64,000 nucleotides of DNA, from the NCBI GenBank assembly GCA_965276885.1, contig OZ255702.1:1137286-1201285 (forward strand). The letters run 5' to 3'. The notes beneath the pieces are model-generated. The model did not search any database. It was not told where the DNA came from and was given only the letters and a program-made list of their open reading frames with translations. Source of the stretch: Granulicella sp. Its GTDB lineage: Bacteria > Acidobacteriota > Terriglobia > Terriglobales > Acidobacteriaceae. Shown here one piece after another: positions 25,949 to 59,294 of this stretch. Every line of letters begins with the position of its first letter. Within the stretch, counting starts at the first letter, position 1. Both the position numbers and the translations under genes were made by a program.

Positions 25949-26785
25949 ATGGCCGAACAATACGCAGGAATTGTCCATCAAAAGCAGAGTAGGGCCGCTG
26001 AGGCCGTTGCGGAGGCCGCGGCCATCATGGCGCGGCTGCGCGGTCCCGGTGGCTGTCCGTGGGATCGCGAGCAGACCTTCGACACCATCAAGCGGCACAC
26101 GCTGGAGGAAACCTACGAGGTCTTCGACGCGATCGAACGCCGCGCCTGGCCCGACCTCCGCGACGAACTCGGCGATCTGCTGCTGCAGATCCTCTTCTAC
26201 GCGCAGATGGCCGAAGAGGCCGGACACTTCAGCCTGCGCGACGTCGCTGAGGCGCTCAGCGCCAAGCTGATTCGCCGTCACCCCCACATCTTCGCGGATG
26301 CCGTCGCTCACGACGCCGGCGCGGTGCTGCGCCACTGGGAGCAGATCAAGCGTGAAGAAAAACGTGCGGCAGCCTCGGTGATCGAAGATCAGTCTGCGCT
26401 CGACAGCATCCCGCGCTCGATGCCCGCGATGCTGGAAGCCGCGAAGCTGGGCTCCAAAGCCGCGAAGGCCGGTTTTGATTGGCCGGATGCCGGCGGTCTC
26501 TTCGCAAAACTCGAAGAGGAGACGCAGGAGTTGAAAGCTGAACTCAACGCGGGCGCTCATGACGCCGCGGAAGCCGAGTTCGGCGATCTGCTGTTTACCG
26601 CAATGAATCTTGCCCGTCATCTCGGCATCGACCCGGAATCCGCTTTACGCCGCACAAACGCGAAATTCCGCAGCCGCTACACGATGATGGAGCAGCTGGC
26701 CGGCGGGACAGACGCTTTCGAAGCCGTCCCTTTGGCCGAAAAAGAAGAATTCTGGACGCAAGCGAAGGCTCGGGTGATCCCGTAA
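25949..26785 (+). CDS. mazG: Nucleoside triphosphate pyrophosphohydrolase MazG
   Basis: LRGPGGCPWDREQT; EETYEV; ELGDLLLQ; KLIRRHPHIF; EFGDLLF. Confidence 0.95.
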   Translation: MAEQYAGIVHQKQSRAAEAVAEAAAIMARLRGPGGCPWDREQTFDTIKRHTLEETYEVFDAIERRAWPDLRDELGDLLLQILFYAQMAEEAGHFSLRDVAEALSAKLIRRHPHIFADAVAHDAGAVLRHWEQIKREEKRAAASVIEDQSALDSIPRSMPAMLEAAKLGSKAAKAGFDWPDAGGLFAKLEEETQELKAELNAGAHDAAEAEFGDLLFTAMNLARHLGIDPESALRRTNAKFRSRYTMMEQLAGGTDAFEAVPLAEKEEFWTQAKARVIP

Positions 26786-26834
26786 GGACGATCCCATGCC
26801 CGTTAGAAATTTTCTGCATTGATTATGTTCTTTC

Positions 26835-26874
26835 TGTCATTCGCCCTGAGCATGGCCGAACGAGAGGGAATCTG
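26835..26874. repeat. Family B REP-like unit (GTCATTCGCCCTGAGC...GAGGGAAT)
   Basis: Near-identical inverted copy at 49926-49966. Confidence 0.65.
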
Positions 26875-26942
26875 TTGTTGCGCACCAGGGGAATCTCTGC
26901 ACAAGTCCTGTCATCGTCTTTGGGAGGGAGCGTAGGGCTTCA

Positions 26943-27100
26943 CAGGCTGCGGAAAAACTCTTCAGGAATCCAAAATTCGTAAAATTTGGAGGTCTGGCGA
27001 CATGGCAAAGTATCACCAAATTCGCATCGGTTATTTGTAGGGCATCCTCGCACGATGAGATTTTCGGGTCGTTCCTACAAAAGAGTTTTTCCGCAGCCTG
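26943..27100. mobile_element. 158-bp MITE with 18-bp terminal IRs, inserted in a TTCA hairpin loop
   Basis: CAGGCTGCGGAAAAACTC / GAGTTTTTCCGCAGCCTG; TTCA duplicated at 26939-26942 and 27101-27104. Confidence 0.85.
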
Positions 27101-27149
27101 TTCAGCCCTTGTATCTTGCATTGTGAGGCGTGACGATAGGTTACGTTTT

Positions 27150-27282
27150 GGCGGTGAGGCCGTTCAGCCCTGAGGCCGGTGAGAGCCGAGCCTGCCTGTA
27201 GATCGGCCCCCGTCCCTCTCTTTTTGACGCCGTGGAGAATCGGAGGCCTTGTGAGCCTGCATGTTCAAGGTTGGCGGAAAGA
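27150..27282 (+). ncRNA. Predicted bridge RNA with target-binding and donor-binding loops
   Basis: Two stem / internal loop / hairpin modules carrying TTCAGCCCT plus GTAG (target) and GGAGAATC plus CAAG (donor). Boundaries approximate. Confidence 0.75.
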
Positions 27283-27345
27283 GCAAGTCCGTGCGGAGCG
27301 GACGCGGGACGGTGCCGAAGCTCAGGGTAAATCCGGAGGAGAGCG

Positions 27346-28356
27346 ATGGGCAAGGCAGCAGTTTCCAGTCAGGCGTTTTGCGGAATCGATGTCAGTGCGG
27401 CGACGCTTGCCGCGGCGGTTCAGCGTGGGGACCGGGAGGGGTTCGAGCAGCGCGAGTTCGCCAACTCTGCGGCCGGTCACCGCCAGCGGGTCGAGTGGCT
27501 GGGCAAGCGCGGTGCAATGGTCCGGGTGTCGCTTGAAGCCACCGGCATCTACTCGCTGGACGTGGCCCTGGCGCTCGATCGGGCCGGCGGCCTCGAGGTC
27601 GCGGTGCTCAACCCCAAGACGGTCAACCGGTTCGCCCAGACGCTACGGCGGTCCAAGACGGACGCGGTGGCGCTGGCCGAGTACAGCCTGCGGATGCCGT
27701 TCGTTCCTTGGCAGCGGCCCAGTCCGGTGGCGCTGGCGCCGCGGGCGATCAGCCGGCATAGCGCCGCGCTCACCCGGGATCCTACCCGGGCGAGCAACCG
27801 GTTGCACGCCGCCGAGGGCTCGGCCACGACCCCCCGCTGTGTGCGGGAGGATCTCAAACGTTCGATGGCTGGGTTCGGCAAGCGCATCGCGCGGCTGCGC
27901 AAGCAAGCGCTGGCGATGGTTCGCCAGGACGCCGTGTTGCAGCGGAAGTTCGAGCAGCTGGTGGCCATGCCGGGCATCGCCGAGACCAGCGCGGTGCAGC
28001 TGCTCAAGCGAACTGGCGGGACTGGACCCGAAGATGACGGTGCGTCAGTGGGTGGCCCACAGTGGGCTCGACCCGGCGCACCGGCAATCCGGCACGTCGA
28101 TCCATCTTCCGTCGCGCATCAGCCGCCACGGCAACAGCCATCTCCGGCGCGCGCTCTACATGCCGGCGCTCGTGGCCTCGCGGCGCGACTCCCATCCGAG
28201 GGCTTTTTCTCAGGCCCTGCTGGGCAGGCAAAAAACCAAGCTCCAGGCCATCATGGCCGTAGCCCGGAAACTGCTTCACGCCATCTTCGGTCTCTTCAAA
28301 ACAGGAACAGCCTACGATGGAGCAAACTCTTTCCCCAACTCGTACCCACTTCCTAG
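27346..28356 (+). pseudogene. IS110 recombinase with two compensating frameshifts
   Basis: GIDVS, LEATG, QSGTS, ISRHGN, ARKLLH; extra A near 28006 and missing A near 28325; KTDxxDA shortened to KTDA. Confidence 0.85.
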
Positions 28357-28440
28357 AAAATCTTTTGCTCTTACCCCAGCAAATCCCTTGCAATCCAAAG
28401 AGAGAATCTACGGCAAAACGGCCAAATACAAGGGGCTTCA

Positions 28441-28573
28441 GTGTGTGCGTGAGAACTCAATGACGATTGCCCAAAACCGTGTAAAACAGACTAAATTTGT
28501 ATAGAAAACGAGCGCCACGGGTCGTAGCAAATCATATAAATGCGCACGTCCGGATGAGTTCTCACGCAGACAC
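28441..28573. mobile_element. 133-bp MITE with 19-bp terminal IRs, inserted in a TTCA hairpin loop
   Basis: GTGTGTGCGTGAGAACTCA / TGAGTTCTCACGCAGACAC (1 mismatch); TTCA duplicated at 28437-28440 and 28574-28577. Confidence 0.85.
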
Positions 28574-28634
28574 TTCAGCCCGGGCATTTTGCCCGGGCCC
28601 ACTCCATCGACTTGATCAGACCTTCCCAAGAAGC

Positions 28635-29591
28635 TCAGCGGGTAGGCACAGGCATGGCCAGCAGCTCACGAATCGCCTCCTGATACGAGACCGGCGCCGG
28701 CAGCACCTGCGGATTCCAGGCGCTGCTGTGCGATTGCTCATTGACCGTGTGCACCAGCATCTCGCGCAGCGTGACCTGCTCGCTCAGCCGCGAATAAAAC
28801 CAGCGGCGCTCCGCGGCCTGCCGCTGCTCCAGCTCCACCGTGCCACCCTCGCTTACGCGCGCCAGCACCCCGCCCCAGCCGAAGTCCACCGGGTGCAGAA
28901 TGCGGGCCTGGATGCGCGTAACGCAGCGAGTCTGCCCATCGATCCACACGCGTCCCGCGATGGCCGTAAGCCCCCCGGTGATCAGGCTCGGCGGCTTGAA
29001 GTTTGGGTCCGGCGTGAAGTCAAGCACGATCTGCGCTCCCGAAAGATCCGGCAGCTGCGGCTGTCCGGGCGCATAGCTCCAGAGCATCGCCCGGGGCAGC
29101 GCATGCACCAGCTCCAGGGCATAGTCGCGGCCTGCGTGATCATGCCGGTGCCGCCGCACAAAGGCGTCCGGCGAACGCAGCAGATCGTTCAGCCGGTCCC
29201 GTTCCGCATTGTTCTCCTCCGCGGTGAGCGGTTTGCCGTCTCGCTGCACGATGCGAGCGACCGTCCCGTCGCGGCTTTCGATGAGGATGCGGGTTGTGTC
29301 GCCCCTCGCGTTCACCTTGCGCTCGGTGAAGCGCAGCGGAATGTCGGTGCCGGCGTTGAGAATGCGCTCCTGGCTCGCTGCCCCCGCCTCGGCCCAGGCA
29401 AGGGGCGGCCGCTTGAGGAGATCCGCTGCCGTTGCGGCGGCCTGCGGCGCAGCTCCTGCTGCCGTCGCCTGACCTCCAAGCTGCGCTGGCAGACCGCTTG
29501 CAAACGCCGGAAGCAGCGCTGCCGCACGGAGGCCGCGAGCTAGGCTCTTCCTCGTCGCTCGGCTTAAAAAGACAGGGCTGGCTCTCCGCAT
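28635..29591 (-). CDS. Exported protein of unknown function
   Basis: Long ORF with signal-like N-terminus from ATG 29591; beta-strand-rich body (IVLDFTPDPNF, GRVWID). Confidence 0.75.
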   Translation of the reverse strand: MRRASPVFLSRATRKSLARGLRAAALLPAFASGLPAQLGGQATAAGAAPQAAATAADLLKRPPLAWAEAGAASQERILNAGTDIPLRFTERKVNARGDTTRILIESRDGTVARIVQRDGKPLTAEENNAERDRLNDLLRSPDAFVRRHRHDHAGRDYALELVHALPRAMLWSYAPGQPQLPDLSGAQIVLDFTPDPNFKPPSLITGGLTAIAGRVWIDGQTRCVTRIQARILHPVDFGWGGVLARVSEGGTVELEQRQAAERRWFYSRLSEQVTLREMLVHTVNEQSHSSAWNPQVLPAPVSYQEAIRELLAMPVPTR

Positions 29592-45363: not shown

Positions 45364-45496
45364 GAAATCTCTGAGTAAGTCTTGTCGTCGTCTTTGGGAG
45401 AGCGTGGGGCTTCACCCCACGGTAAAACGGCCAAATATTGGGGCTTCAGCCCCGGGCAGATGTTGGGCCCCATCCATTGACTTGATCAGAGTTTCC
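45364..45496. repeat. Family A element, copy A5 (intact reference for A3)
   Basis: GAAATCTCTGAGTAAG...TTGATCAGAGTTTCC, between CTAA and CTAA. Confidence 0.82.
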
Positions 45497-45500
45497 CTAA

Positions 45501-45554
45501 AAGCCTATGAAGGTGGGGTTGCAGCCGTTCCACCCCAAAAGTTGTCATAGGCTT
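45501..45554. repeat. 54-bp palindromic mini-element
   Basis: AAGCCTATGA / TCATAGGCTT ends with an internal GGGGT.G...CCACCCC stem. Confidence 0.55.
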
Positions 45555-58657: not shown

Positions 58658-58746
58658 GGAAGGTCTGATCAAGTCAACGGATAGTAGCCAATAAAATGCC
58701 CGGGGCTGAAGCCCCATGTATTTCGGCGTTTTATCGTAGGGCTGAA
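58658..58746. repeat. Family A element, copy A7 (reverse orientation, truncated)
   Basis: After TTAG: GGAAGGTCTGATCAAG...GGGGCTGAAGCCCC...GTAGGGCTGAA, broken at the hairpin loop. Confidence 0.78.
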
Positions 58747-58754
58747 CAGGCTGC

Positions 58755-59294
58755 AAGGCCAGGCTGTTCGGCATCAGTAAGCGCGGCAACGTCTACCTGC
58801 GCAAGATGCTGATCCATGGCGCACGGGGCGCCGTGCTCCGCACCAAACGGGACAGTTCGCCTTTCGGTGCCTGTCTGGATCGACTGGACGCCAGGGCTCA
58901 CACGAACGTCGTCGTGGTGGCCATGGCCAACAAGCTCGCCCGCATCGCCTGGGCGGTTCTGTCGAGCGGCAACAACTATCGATCGGCAGCCGCGCCAGCC
59001 TAACCAGCGCGGAAAAGAACGCCTGCGGCGCTCCCACTTTCCCGCACTTCGACAACGAATAAGCTCTCCACCGAGGTCTGCACAGGGCAACAAGGACGAA
59101 AGAACAGTCACAACGGCGTGTCTGCAGCCTGGTACCGACAATGGTCTTAAACGACCGTGCGACTTATAAGGACCGATACGCGCGCATCTCATCCTGGCCA
59201 GGAGAACTAGTCTCCACTCAAAGGCCGAATACATTTGCGCAGACTTGTCTTCTCGACCAAACTTCCCCCTTGCAGTCGCGCGGCGGACCATACA
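58755..59294 (+). mobile_element. IS1111-type IS110 fragment: transposase C-terminus (58755-59003) plus long right end
   Basis: GISKRGNVYLRKMLIHGAR...AMANKLARIAWAVL; right end finishes TTGCAG...GGCGGACCATAC. Confidence 0.82.

What the first reader, a model, noticed from the sequence alone, without database searches (positions are those of the whole stretch)
27101..28413. IS621-like IS110 whose predicted bridge RNA is programmed against the family A hairpin
Seen: target TTCAGCC-CT-ACGG and circle junction AGAGAAT-CT-TGTATC. The left end has a module (outer stem GGCCG/CGGCC, inner GAGA-capped hairpin) with TTCAGCCCT at 27163-27171 (9/9 left target plus core) and GTAG at 27198-27201 (complement of CTAC). 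A second module has GGAGAATC at 27234-27241 (7/8 left donor) and CAAG at 27266-27269 (complement of CTTG). Circularisation would create TTGCAA-N18-TATCTT, a promoter-like junction. An empty target TTCAGCCCTAC exists at 58736-58746 (minus). A given 9-mer is expected about 0.001 times in 235 nt under uniform composition. Established: IS621 uses a CT core, a left-end bridge RNA with this guide order, and targets REP repeats. Inference: a natural RNA-guided recombinase retargeted to an acidobacterial repeat. This copy's recombinase is frameshifted, so it would need an intact copy in trans.
Basis: partly seen in the sequence, partly recalled or inferred. Interest (0 to 1): 0.87.

Follow-up and report, generated by a model that had tools for sequence, protein, structure and literature searches.

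The report
Dead IS110 element with bridge RNA
This is a decayed, single-copy IS110-family insertion sequence whose left end still encodes a well-preserved bridge RNA with guides matching the repeat hairpin it sits in; it is a clear natural example of an already known RNA-guided mechanism, not a new one.

Summary
The element is 1300 bp (27110-28409), with a CT core at both junctions.

It encodes an IS110-family DEDD/Tnp_20 recombinase, 33% identical to IS621. NCBIfam names the family 'IS110 family RNA-guided transposase'.

Its left end is homologous to the left ends of 76 of 80 related acidobacterial loci. They share a 5' stem-loop and two internal-loop modules, supported by compensatory changes. 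Scaffold columns are 89-96% conserved. The two predicted target-guide segments are hypervariable and track each element's own flanks:
- Left target: 5.0 of 7 matches against 3.1 when permuted.
- Right-target positions 3-6: 88-96% against 25-34%.

An intact metagenomic relative with the same left guide sits at TTCAGCC-CT, and its different right guide matches its different right flank 6/6.

The bridge-RNA reading is therefore supported, with limits:
- This copy is dead. It has a 9-nt deletion in the catalytic DxxD motif and two frameshifts.
- It is single-copy in its genome, and no near-identical intact copy was found.
- IS110 insertion next to repeat hairpins is already described for IS621 and ISPpu10.

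Verdict: a new member of a known kind, of modest interest.

The parts
26934..27109 (+). Target repeat ('family A'). A hairpin or MITE-like element with 29-nt arms at 26934-26962 and 27081-27109. The right arm ends in the left target half.
   Evidence: The arms are 93% complementary with 118 nt between them. Contig word depth is 5-10 times the flanking depth in runs X1-X4.
27101..27109 (+). Left target TTCAGCC plus the CT core (27108-27109).
   Evidence: Sequence. It is identical to the left target guide at 27163-27171.
27110..28409 (+). IS110-family insertion sequence, 1300 bp, counted with the right-hand CT core.
   Evidence: The left-end boundary aligns from position 1 with many relatives. 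The right end ...AGAGAGAATCT is shared by relatives. Contigs of four runs join 27107 to 28408, skipping exactly 1300 bp with a 2-nt ambiguity.
27112..27117 (+). -10 box TATCTT of the promoter that forms only when the right end is joined to the left end.
   Evidence: TATCTT or TATGTT is present in 43 of 43 distinct relatives. No sigma-70-like site scores in the integrated state.
27122..27282 (+). Predicted bridge RNA (covariance-model match). It comprises a 5' stem-loop, a target-binding module and a donor-binding module.
   Evidence: Model R1 scores 170.5 bits here. This is the only hit in the window and the second highest of 60 relatives. The consensus structure is and the pair counts.
27128..27146 (+). 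5' stem-loop: GCGTGAC, loop GATAG, GTTACGT.
   Evidence: In helix 1, three of six pairs show changes on both sides.
27163..27171 (+). Left target guide TTCAGCCCT. It has the same sequence as the top strand of the left target, so it would pair with the bottom strand.
   Evidence: It matches the flank 9/9. Its columns are hypervariable among relatives (majority frequency 0.60 against 0.96 for the adjacent stem) and covary with the flanks.
27173..27193 (+). Inner hairpin of the target-binding module: AGGCC..GAGCCT with a GAGA-type cap.
   Evidence: Helix 6 is 95.9% paired, and two pairs show changes on both sides.
27196..27201 (+). Right target guide CTGTAG. GTAG is complementary to CTAC. In this clade four positions beyond the core covary.
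   Evidence: Its reverse complement CTACAG matches the flank CTACGG at 5 of 6 positions. Clade-wide, right-target positions 3-6 match 88-96% against 25-34% when permuted.
27234..27242 (+). Left donor guide GGAGAATCG.
   Evidence: It matches the right end AGAGAATCT at 7 of 9 positions. The last position is mismatched, as in IS621 (ACAGTATCA against ACAGTATCT).
27266..27269 (+). Right donor guide CAAG, complementary to CTTG (core plus the first two bases of the left end).
   Evidence: The same CAAGGTTGG context is present in IS621.
27346..28356 (+). Recombinase pseudogene. Lesions: a 9-nt deletion at 27663/27664, one extra A near 28007, and one A missing from the run at 28324-28326. The stop codon is at 28354-28356.
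   Evidence: Pfam domains fall in two reading frames. Alignment with 25 homologues and with IS621. Contigs of four runs carry the same sequence with no indel differences.
28388..28393 (+). -35 box TTGCAA of the junction promoter.
   Evidence: A TTG-initial hexamer lies 16-18 nt from the -10 box across the joined ends in 42 of 43 distinct relatives.
28401..28409 (+). Left donor AGAGAAT plus the CT core (28408-28409).
   Evidence: AGAGAATCT is invariant in every relative where the right end was located.
28410..28413 (+). Right target ACGG.
   Evidence: Sequence. It continues as ACGGCAAAACGGCCAAATAC, which is homologous to the empty copy at 58706-58732.
58706..58754 (-). Paralogous unoccupied target: GCAGCCTGTTCAGCC-CT-ACGATAAAACGCCGAAATACATGGGG.

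Best explanation
The region is a relic of an IS110-family insertion sequence of the IS110 group, the type exemplified by IS621.

**How the active ancestor most likely worked (inferred from the family).** It excised as a circle, and joining the right end to the left end created a promoter (TTGCAA, 18 nt, TATCTT). That promoter drove a non-coding bridge RNA of about 160 nt from the left end. One internal loop of the RNA held the donor guides GGAGAATCG and CAAG, which match the joined ends AGAGAAT-CT-TGTATC. The other loop held the target guides TTCAGCCCT and (CT)GTAG. The recombinase, guided by this RNA, exchanged strands at the CT core. That placed the element at TTCAGCC-CT-ACGG, the 3' foot of a multi-copy hairpin repeat lying between two convergent genes.

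**What happened since.** The recombinase gene lost one aspartate of its DxxD catalytic motif through a 9-nt deletion and acquired two frameshifts. The element is now immobile and present once in the genome. The RNA gene still scores as well as those of intact relatives.

**Shown here:** the boundaries, the protein family, the lesions, the RNA architecture with compensatory changes, guide-flank covariation in relatives, and single-copy status.

**Inferred from published work on IS621:** that the RNA is made and that it guides recombination.
For: **Boundaries**
- CT lies at both junctions.
- A paralogous empty site is in the window.
- Contigs of four runs join 27107 to 28408, an exact 1300-bp skip with a 2-nt overlap.

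**Protein**
- PF01548 has E 7.7e-19 and PF02371 has E 5.8e-13.
- NF033542 scores 174.5 bits against a cut-off of 140.
- Identity to the IS621 transposase is 33%, E 2e-43.
- 2742 homologues were found, the best at 80-81% identity.

**RNA**
- The left end shows 70-90% DNA identity to the left ends of 76 of 80 acidobacterial loci.
- RNAalifold returns two stem / internal-loop / hairpin modules.
- 95.4% of cells are paired, against 25-50% when the partners are slid. Ten pairs change on both sides, against 4.9 +/- 1.1 in shuffles, with 0 of 500 shuffles reaching the observed value.
- Scaffold columns have majority frequency 0.89-0.96; guide columns have 0.46-0.60.

**Guides**
- The window's left guide matches 9/9. 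Its right guide matches 4/4, or 5/6 in the extended form.
- Across 47 unique guide/flank pairs, 5.02 of 7 non-core positions match. Permutation gives 3.12 +/- 0.17, with a maximum of 3.74 in 2000 trials.
- Right-target positions 3-6 match 88-96%, against 25-34% when permuted.
- L086 is an intact element (77% protein identity) with the same left guide. It sits at TTCAGCC-CT, and its different right guide predicts CTTGGT, which matches its flank 6/6.

**Donor**
- The right end AGAGAATCT and the left end TGTATC/G are constant, and so are the donor guides.

**Promoter**
- A -35 TTG hexamer lies 16-18 nt from TATCTT/TATGTT across the junction in 42 of 43 relatives.
- No sigma-70-like promoter scores in the integrated state.

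**IS621 layout**
- I read it from a real E. coli copy and from PMC11208160.

**Decay**
- Lesions.
- Interior depth is 139 against a flank depth of 145.
Against: - Nothing shows that this locus is transcribed. No RNA run of the organism was found.
- Metatranscriptome contigs of relatives cover the donor-binding region at only 2-7x, and they may contain DNA.
- Rfam 15 returns no bridge-RNA match.
- My covariance model detects the IS621 RNA only weakly: 8.1 bits, E 0.36. The hit is in register and is the best hit outside the window's own RNA.
- A single-sequence fold of the whole left end is no more stable than shuffles (z = -1.29) and does not give the consensus architecture.
- The first base of the left guide is T in 39 of 47 relatives whatever the target. 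The informative match is therefore 8 nt, not 9.
- The junction promoter of this copy matches consensus poorly, at 4/6 plus 4/6 with an 18-nt spacer. Most relatives have 17 nt.
Confidence: 0.88

Rival explanations
1. The element is still mobile, or at least its bridge RNA is still used. An intact cognate recombinase elsewhere in the same cell would act in trans on this copy.
For: - The RNA gene is not degraded. It scores 170.5 bits, second of 60, and it keeps all 59 invariant columns of alignment A2.
- IS621 bridge RNA works in trans (PMC11208160).
- Contigs of related left ends with other guides are present in the same sample.
Against: - The element interior has the same depth as single-copy flanks, 139 against 145.
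- The related left-end contigs have 3-47x depth against about 140x for this genome, so they belong to other community members.
- No protein above 81% identity exists among 5.8 billion sequences.
- No second copy is in the window.
- The only other IS110 gene in the window is a 78-residue fragment.
Confidence: 0.06
2. The frameshifts are homopolymer errors of the assembly and the recombinase is in fact intact.
For: Both frameshifts are one-base changes in short A runs, AA near 28007 and AAA at 28324-28326. That is the kind of error long-read assemblies make. The window comes from a 4.6-Mb contig.
Against: - Contigs of four separate runs cover 27263-28493 with no differing letters and no gaps (sections 4 and 8).
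- The 9-nt in-frame deletion removes three residues of the motif KTDxADA, which is KTDTVDA in IS621. It is not a homopolymer error.
- I could not establish the sequencing platform of the runs, or whether they are independent of the assembly.
Confidence: 0.04
3. The copies of flank sequence inside the left end are DNA-level features, either chance matches or subterminal repeats bound by the protein, and no guide RNA is involved.
For: - The repeat finder reports the match simply as a 15-nt direct repeat, 27095-27109 against 27157-27171 at 87%.
- No transcript has been shown for this locus.
Against: - A given 9-mer is expected about 0.001 times in 236 nt.
- The variable segments sit in the internal loops of a structure that keeps its pairs through compensatory changes.
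- One segment matches the top strand of the left flank. The other matches the bottom strand of the right flank. This is exactly the IS621 RNA-DNA pairing scheme.
- For IS621, changing the RNA reprograms the target (PMC11208160).
Confidence: 0.02

Closest known systems
IS621 of Escherichia coli (IS110 family, IS110 group; bridge RNA, Durrant et al. 2024, PMC11208160)
   Same: - The two protein domains are the same, and identity is 33% over 321 residues.
- Both use a CT core.
- Both have the RNA gene in the left end, upstream of the recombinase gene.
- The order of parts is the same: 5' stem-loop, target loop (left guide, then right guide), donor loop (left guide, then right guide).
- The left guide equals the top strand and the right guide is its complement.
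- The last base of the left donor guide is mismatched in both.
- Both share the CAAGGTTGG context, and both have a promoter split across the joined ends.
- The donor and target words are even similar. Donor: AGAGAAT-CT-TGTAT here, ACAGTAT-CT-TGTAT in IS621. Target: TTCAGCC-CT-AC here, ATCAGGC-CT-AC in IS621.
- Both sit next to repeat hairpins.
   Different: - The host phylum is Acidobacteriota.
- RNA sequence similarity is marginal (8.1 bits, E 0.36).
- Loop spacings differ: 26 nt against 18 nt between the target guides.
- In this clade four bases beyond the core covary with the right guide, giving 6 nt. IS621 has 4 in the wild type, although extended right guides are described for it.
- The first base of the left guide is a nearly constant T.
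- This copy is a pseudogene.
ISPpu10 and ISPpu9 of Pseudomonas putida (IS110 family; preprint 10.64898/2026.03.19.712850; PMC12288879)
   Same: - They insert into repetitive extragenic palindromes.
- For ISPpu10, the left target forms the 3' arm of a hairpin just upstream of the core. That geometry matches the one here, where TTCAGCC ends the right arm of a 29-nt-arm hairpin.
- The ISPpu10 preprint reports such left-flank hairpins in many branches of the family.
   Different: - According to the preprint, the ISPpu10 RNA lacks the 5' stem-loop. This clade has one, with compensatory changes.
- Whether the hairpin is required here was not tested.
- ISPpu9 carries a small-RNA gene downstream of the transposase gene. 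This window copy has none, although some relatives carry a structured module of about 150 nt in that position.
IS1111 group (IS1111, IS4321/IS5075; seekRNA, reviewed in PMC13604230)
   Same: It belongs to the same protein family and uses RNA-guided target choice. It also tends to target repeated sequences, including the ends of other mobile elements.
   Different: In that group the guide RNA lies downstream of the recombinase gene. Here it lies upstream, so this element does not belong to that group.

Membership tests
IS110 family, IS110 group (bridge-RNA-guided insertion sequences, IS621 type) | A recombinase with an N-terminal DEDD RuvC-like domain and a C-terminal Tnp_20 domain. | tested here: met
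   PF01548 (E 7.7e-19) and PF02371 (E 5.8e-13) are found in two reading frames. The frame-corrected protein scores 174.5 bits on NF033542 against a cut-off of 140.
IS110 family, IS110 group (bridge-RNA-guided insertion sequences, IS621 type) | An intact catalytic set (D, E, DxxD, Ser) and a continuous reading frame, as required for an active member. | tested here: not met
   The motif reads KTDA where homologues have KTDxADA and IS621 has KTDTVDA. There is also a +1 frameshift near 28007 and a -1 frameshift at 28324-28326. The element is a member by descent but not a working copy.
IS110 family, IS110 group (bridge-RNA-guided insertion sequences, IS621 type) | No terminal inverted repeats; a 2-nt core (CT) at both junctions and present once in the empty site. 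| tested here: met
   CT lies at 27108-27109 and 28408-28409. The window's empty paralogue carries a single CT. The contig joint skips exactly 1300 bp with a 2-nt overlap. The only inverted repeat at the ends pairs flank with flank plus the first 10 nt of the left end (I5), so it is not a terminal inverted repeat of the element.
IS110 family, IS110 group (bridge-RNA-guided insertion sequences, IS621 type) | A structured non-coding RNA gene in the left end with two internal loops. | tested here: met
   The RNAalifold consensus of 49 sequences gives this architecture. 95.4% of cells are paired and 10 pairs show compensatory change, with 0 of 500 shuffles reaching that.
IS110 family, IS110 group (bridge-RNA-guided insertion sequences, IS621 type) | The first loop carries a left guide equal to the top strand of the left target plus core, and a right guide complementary to the core plus right target. 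Both covary with the flanks. | tested here: met
   The window matches 9/9 and 4/4 (5/6 extended). In the clade, 5.02 of 7 positions match against 3.12 when permuted, and right-target positions 3-6 match 88-96% against 25-34%. The independent element L086 agrees.
IS110 family, IS110 group (bridge-RNA-guided insertion sequences, IS621 type) | The second loop carries guides for the element's own joined ends. | tested here: met
   GGAGAATCG matches AGAGAATCT at 7/9, and CAAG matches CTTG at 4/4. Guides and ends are constant together across the clade.
IS110 family, IS110 group (bridge-RNA-guided insertion sequences, IS621 type) | A promoter for the RNA that is reconstituted only across the right-end/left-end junction of the circle. 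| tested here: inconclusive
   The hexamers are in the right places, and they are conserved in 42 of 43 relatives. No promoter-like site scores in the integrated state. Promoter activity was not measured, and this copy's hexamers are weak.
IS110 family, IS110 group (bridge-RNA-guided insertion sequences, IS621 type) | The RNA is expressed and directs recombination. | not testable with these tools
   No RNA run of the organism was found. Only low-depth metatranscriptome contigs of relatives were found.
IS110 family, IS110 group (bridge-RNA-guided insertion sequences, IS621 type) | The RNA is detectably homologous to the IS621 bridge RNA. | tested here: inconclusive
   Model R1 finds the IS621 donor-binding module in register at L001 1949-2063, but only at 8.1 bits and E 0.36. 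Rfam 15 gives no hit.
IS1111 group (guide RNA downstream of the recombinase gene) | The guide RNA gene lies in the right end, and the element has subterminal inverted repeats. | tested here: not met
   The structured RNA with guides lies upstream of the gene, at 27122-27282. The 53 nt after the stop codon hold only the -35 box and the donor end.
REP/MITE-like intergenic hairpin repeat (the target) | An imperfect palindrome that is multi-copy and lies between genes. | tested here: met
   The arms are 29 nt and 93% complementary. Depth is 5-10 times the flanks, with several alternative continuations in X1-X4. The element lies between convergent ORFs that end at 26785 and 28635.

The most novel reading that the evidence does not exclude
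The acidobacterial clade may represent a distinct natural operating mode of bridge recombinases. Its features would be a right target guide of six rather than four bases, an informative left guide of eight bases, and near-obligate placement at the foot of repeat hairpins. Guide turnover is fast enough that elements 77-80% identical already differ in one half-site. The orphaned but undegraded RNA of this dead copy might still be transcribed by read-through and used by related recombinases. My evidence does not exclude any of this, and none of it has been shown to be functional.
Probability: 0.1. Interest if true: 0.45.

Novelty: new member of a known kind. Interest (0 to 1): 0.27.

Why it matters
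The locus changes nothing about how IS110 elements are understood. The mechanism, the guide layout and the preference for repeat hairpins are all published, and NCBI already names the protein family 'RNA-guided transposase'.

Its value is as a worked natural example in a little-studied phylum. The 80 related loci form a compact series with 27 left guides and 17 right guides on a nearly constant scaffold, each with its own insertion site. That series could serve as a benchmark for programs that predict guides, and as a source of new recombinase/RNA pairs.

For genome annotation, it shows that the 336-residue 'transposase' called at this locus is a chimera of two reading frames. It also shows that the 236 nt upstream of the gene hold an RNA gene.

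Tried and rejected
- **Rfam.** A permissive search of 26500-29000 gave only chance hits, so no curated bridge-RNA model matched.
- **Single-sequence fold of the left end.** It was no better than shuffles (z = -1.29) and gave a misleading long-range fold. Only the comparative fold was informative.
- **First automatic guide extraction.** A lazy regular expression put several relatives one base out of register. I re-anchored on the core. Ten loci whose left guide ends CCC rather than CCT were left out of the statistic.
- **Apparent double depth over 27209-27309.** I first read it as a second copy in the genome. It is unitig overlap plus low-depth relatives from other community members.
- **Exact-skip contig.** I considered that the 1300-bp skip could be an excised allele. 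I rejected this because the flank depth is not the sum of the occupied and empty forms, so it is a paralogous empty site.
- **Perfect-arm inverted-repeat test of target sites.** It is too strict and scores the window's own hairpin as zero. It still shows enrichment: 13% of sites have arms of at least 10 nt, against 1% of control windows.
- **IS110 gene fragment beside the empty target at 58755.** I asked whether it marks an RNA-guided rearrangement. The junction is not at the CT core, so there is no support.
- **RNA data.** No RNA run of the organism was found.
Full report
**1. The observation**

I read 26800-28800.
- The left flank ends TTCAGCC-CT at 27101-27109.
- The element starts TGTATC at 27110 and ends AGAGAAT-CT at 28401-28409.
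- The right flank starts ACGG at 28410.

The element is therefore 1300 bp, counted with one copy of the CT.

Inside the left end are TTCAGCCCT (27163-27171), GTAG (27198-27201), GGAGAATC (27234-27241) and CAAG (27266-27269).

TTCAGCCCT occurs three times in the 64 kb window on both strands, where shuffles give 0.45. The 11-mer TTCAGCCCTAC has one exact copy, at 58736-58746 on the minus strand.

That copy is a true paralogue of the insertion site. It matches the left flank 17/17 and 27 nt of the right flank at 89%.

**2. The protein**

Two reading frames carry the two halves of an IS110-family recombinase: PF01548 at 27346-28005 and PF02371 at 28010-28411.

After frame correction the protein passes NCBIfam NF033542, 'IS110 family RNA-guided transposase', at 174.5 bits against a cut-off of 140. 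It is 33% identical to the IS621 transposase.

A search of 5.8 billion proteins found 2742 homologues. The best are only 80-81% identical, and those that carry an organism name are Acidobacteriaceae or Acidobacteriota.

Alignment with 25 homologues shows three lesions.
- A 9-nt in-frame deletion at 27663/27664 turns the invariant KTDxADA into KTDA. IS621 has KTDTVDA, so one aspartate of the DxxD motif is lost.
- One extra A lies near 28007.
- One A is missing from the run at 28324-28326. This returns the reading to the first frame for the last 11 codons (KLFPQLVPTS, stop at 28354-28356).

The 336-residue ORF that gene callers report here is therefore a chimera of frames.

Contigs of four sequencing runs from the source sample carry the same sequence with no indel differences. 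The lesions are thus not a glitch of the window. I could not establish the platform of the runs.

**3. Boundaries and copy number**

The left-end alignment with relatives starts at position 1 of the element. The right end ...AGAGAGAATCT is shared by relatives.

In runs X1-X4, a contig joins 27107 to 28408, skipping exactly 1300 bp with a 2-nt overlap. Its depth equals that of single-copy sequence.

The flank depth (145) is not the sum of the occupied and empty forms. The contig is therefore a second, unoccupied copy of the same composite repeat elsewhere in the genome, not an excised allele.

The element interior has depth 139 against 145 for the flanks, so it is single-copy.

An apparent doubling over 27209-27309 turned out to be unitig overlap plus contigs at 3-47x. 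Those contigs come from related elements with other guides in other members of the sample.

The hairpin that carries the target has 29-nt arms at 26934-26962 and 27081-27109. Its depth is 5-10 times that of the flanks, so it is a repeat family. It lies between convergent ORFs.

**4. The reference**

So as not to rely on memory, I used my recollection of the IS621 bridge RNA as a query against complete E. coli genomes. It matched at 100% in many of them. I then read a real annotated IS621 copy.

That copy shows:
- a left end starting TGTATTATCC;
- guides ATCGGGCCT, GTAG, ACAGTATCA and CAAG, in that order;
- a right end ...TTGCAGGCCATAACAGTATCT followed by ACGCAG.

PMC11208160 gives the pairing rules. 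The left guides pair with the bottom strand and the right guides with the top strand. The core is included in all four pairings. The left target guide is nine bases and the right target guide four. The wild-type target is ATCAGGCCTAC.

The window element has the same order, the same polarity and the same mismatch at the last base of the left donor guide. Even the words are similar.

**5. Comparative test**

A profile of the homologues retrieved 80 loci from Acidobacteriaceae and related genomes. The left end is 70-90% identical at DNA level in 76 of them.

*Structure.* Forty-nine distinct RNA regions were aligned. RNAalifold returns two modules, each made of an outer stem, an internal loop and an inner hairpin. 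With the 5' stem-loop added by hand:
- 95.4% of cells pair, against 25-50% when the partners are slid;
- ten pairs change on both sides, against 4.9 +/- 1.1 in shuffles, with 0 of 500 shuffles reaching that.

*Conservation.* Scaffold columns have majority frequency 0.89-0.96. The seven non-core left-guide columns have 0.60 and the four right-guide columns 0.46.

*Covariation.* The variable columns track each element's own flanks.
- In 47 unique pairs with 27 distinct left guides, 5.02 of 7 positions match. Permutation gives 3.12 +/- 0.17, with a maximum of 3.74 in 2000 trials.
- In 26 pairs with 17 distinct right guides, positions 3-6 of the right target match at 88-96%, against 25-34% when permuted. 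Positions 7-8 do not match.

The right guide is therefore effectively six bases in this clade. The window site fits it 5/6 (CTACAG predicted, CTACGG found).

The first left-guide base is T in 39 of 47 elements regardless of target, so the informative left match is eight bases.

*Multi-copy families.* Families within one genome all sit at matching sites. Examples are seven copies in one Acidobacteriaceae genome, all at ..CCCACC-CT-TTGC, and four copies in another that match 9/9 and 8/8.

**6. An independent sibling**

I scanned metagenome contigs for the window's own left-guide context (GGCCGTTCAGCCCTNAGGCC). The scan found three copies of related elements.

L086 encodes an intact 340-residue recombinase, 77% identical to the window's. 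It has the same left guide and sits at ..GGCAGTTCAGCC-CT. Its right guide differs (reverse complement CTTGGT), and its right flank is CT-TGGTAA, a 6/6 match.

L082 is a truncated left end at ..GGGCTTTCAGCC-CT.

**7. Donor side and promoter**

The right end AGAGAATCT and the left end TGTATC/G are constant in the clade, and so are the donor guides.

Across the joined ends, 42 of 43 distinct relatives have a TTG-initial hexamer, mostly TTGACT or TTGACA. It lies 16-18 nt (mostly 17) from TATCTT or TATGTT.

The window copy has TTGCAA and 18 nt. The closest right ends have one A fewer in that spacer.

No sigma-70-like site scores in the integrated state.

**8. State of the RNA gene**

The covariance model built from the alignment scores the window RNA at 170.5 bits. 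That is second of 60, within a range of 133-175 for the main clades, and it is the only hit in the window. The RNA gene shows no sign of decay, although the protein gene is dead.

The model's best hit outside the window's own RNA, in the search of the window plus the IS621 locus, is the donor-binding module of IS621. It is in register, but only at 8.1 bits and E 0.36.

**9. Expression**

No RNA run of the organism was found.

Moss, plant and soil metatranscriptomes hold low-depth contigs of relatives over the donor-binding region. One of these contigs runs on into a different target loop. This is weak evidence, and DNA carry-over cannot be excluded.

**10. Comparison with what is known**

The mechanism, the guide layout, the split promoter and the insertion next to repeat palindromes are all published for IS621 (PMC11208160).

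A 2026 preprint on ISPpu10 reports that the left target is often the 3' arm of a hairpin, and that such hairpins are widespread in the family.

IS110 elements in Acidobacteria have been noted since 2012 (PMC3469429).

I therefore file this as a new member of a known kind. It is a member by descent of the IS110 group but not a working copy. It is not a member of the IS1111 group, because the RNA lies upstream of the gene.

**11. Verdict**

Three corrections apply:
- the copy is a fossil;
- no partner able to act in trans was found;
- retargeting to local repeats is the normal behaviour of this family.

Interest is modest.

Noticed in passing
L010 2535-2700; also L012, L015, L016, L020, L028, L029, L031, L037-L040, L048, L049, L078 (not in the window): A subset of the acidobacterial relatives carries a conserved module of about 150 nt between the recombinase stop codon and the -35 box of the right end (..GTGAAACGGAAGCGGGCTCTGCTGGGAAGCAACC..GAGGGATAAC..CTGACGATGAACC..CATCGGAGGGATAGACCC..). 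RNAalifold on seven sequences gives 43 pairs, 12 of them with compensatory changes. Rfam 15 has no match. It may be a second non-coding RNA carried by these elements, comparable in position to the Ssr9 small RNA of ISPpu9.
   Followed up: partly
L056-L076, for example L064 (left end at locus position 1224): In one clade (48% protein identity to the window's recombinase) the bridge-RNA guides read TCACATCCT and CTATAATC. In each copy where an ORF could be read across the reconstructed empty site (L063, L064, L066, L069), the insertion lies within the first few codons of a different IS110-family transposase gene (M-[LMI]-I-I-G-[CVA]-D-[YF]-H-P...), on the opposite strand. No uninterrupted ORF was found for two others (L056, L075). 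This looks like an insertion sequence programmed against the conserved catalytic N-terminus of another insertion sequence.
   Followed up: partly
window 58755-59003 (+): A C-terminal 78-residue fragment of a different IS110-family transposase (NF033542 positions 274-341) abuts the truncated hairpin arm that holds the empty target. The junction shares the 7-mer CAGCCTG on both sides and is not at the CT core. It looks like an ordinary deletion rather than an RNA-guided event.
   Followed up: partly
window 28433-28598 and 45366-45504: The DNA to the right of the element is part of a larger composite intergenic repeat. The parts are ACGGCAAAACGGCCAAATA, then a second hairpin at 28433-28459 / 28555-28581 with GGGCTTCA...TTCAGCCC ends, then a GC-rich terminator-like hairpin at 28578-28598. 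A compact version with short hairpins lies at 45366-45504. The window holds many other MITE-like inverted repeats as well.
   Followed up: partly
L001 1776-1900 (E. coli NZ_CP151045, an IS621 copy): This IS621 copy carries the first 85 nt of its left end twice in tandem. The duplication is joined at ..GGGTTCTAACCT|TGTATTATCC.., at a CT inside the target-binding loop region. It looks like an aberrant recombination between the element's own left end and a pseudo-target within its RNA gene.
   Followed up: no
runs X1-X4 laid on window 26300-29300: The runs that hold the window each have about 5 million contigs, and they include related IS110 left ends at 3-47x depth with other guides. The source is therefore a community sample dominated by the window organism at about 140x, not a pure culture. 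Copy-number estimates for the hairpin repeat are upper bounds.
   Followed up: partly
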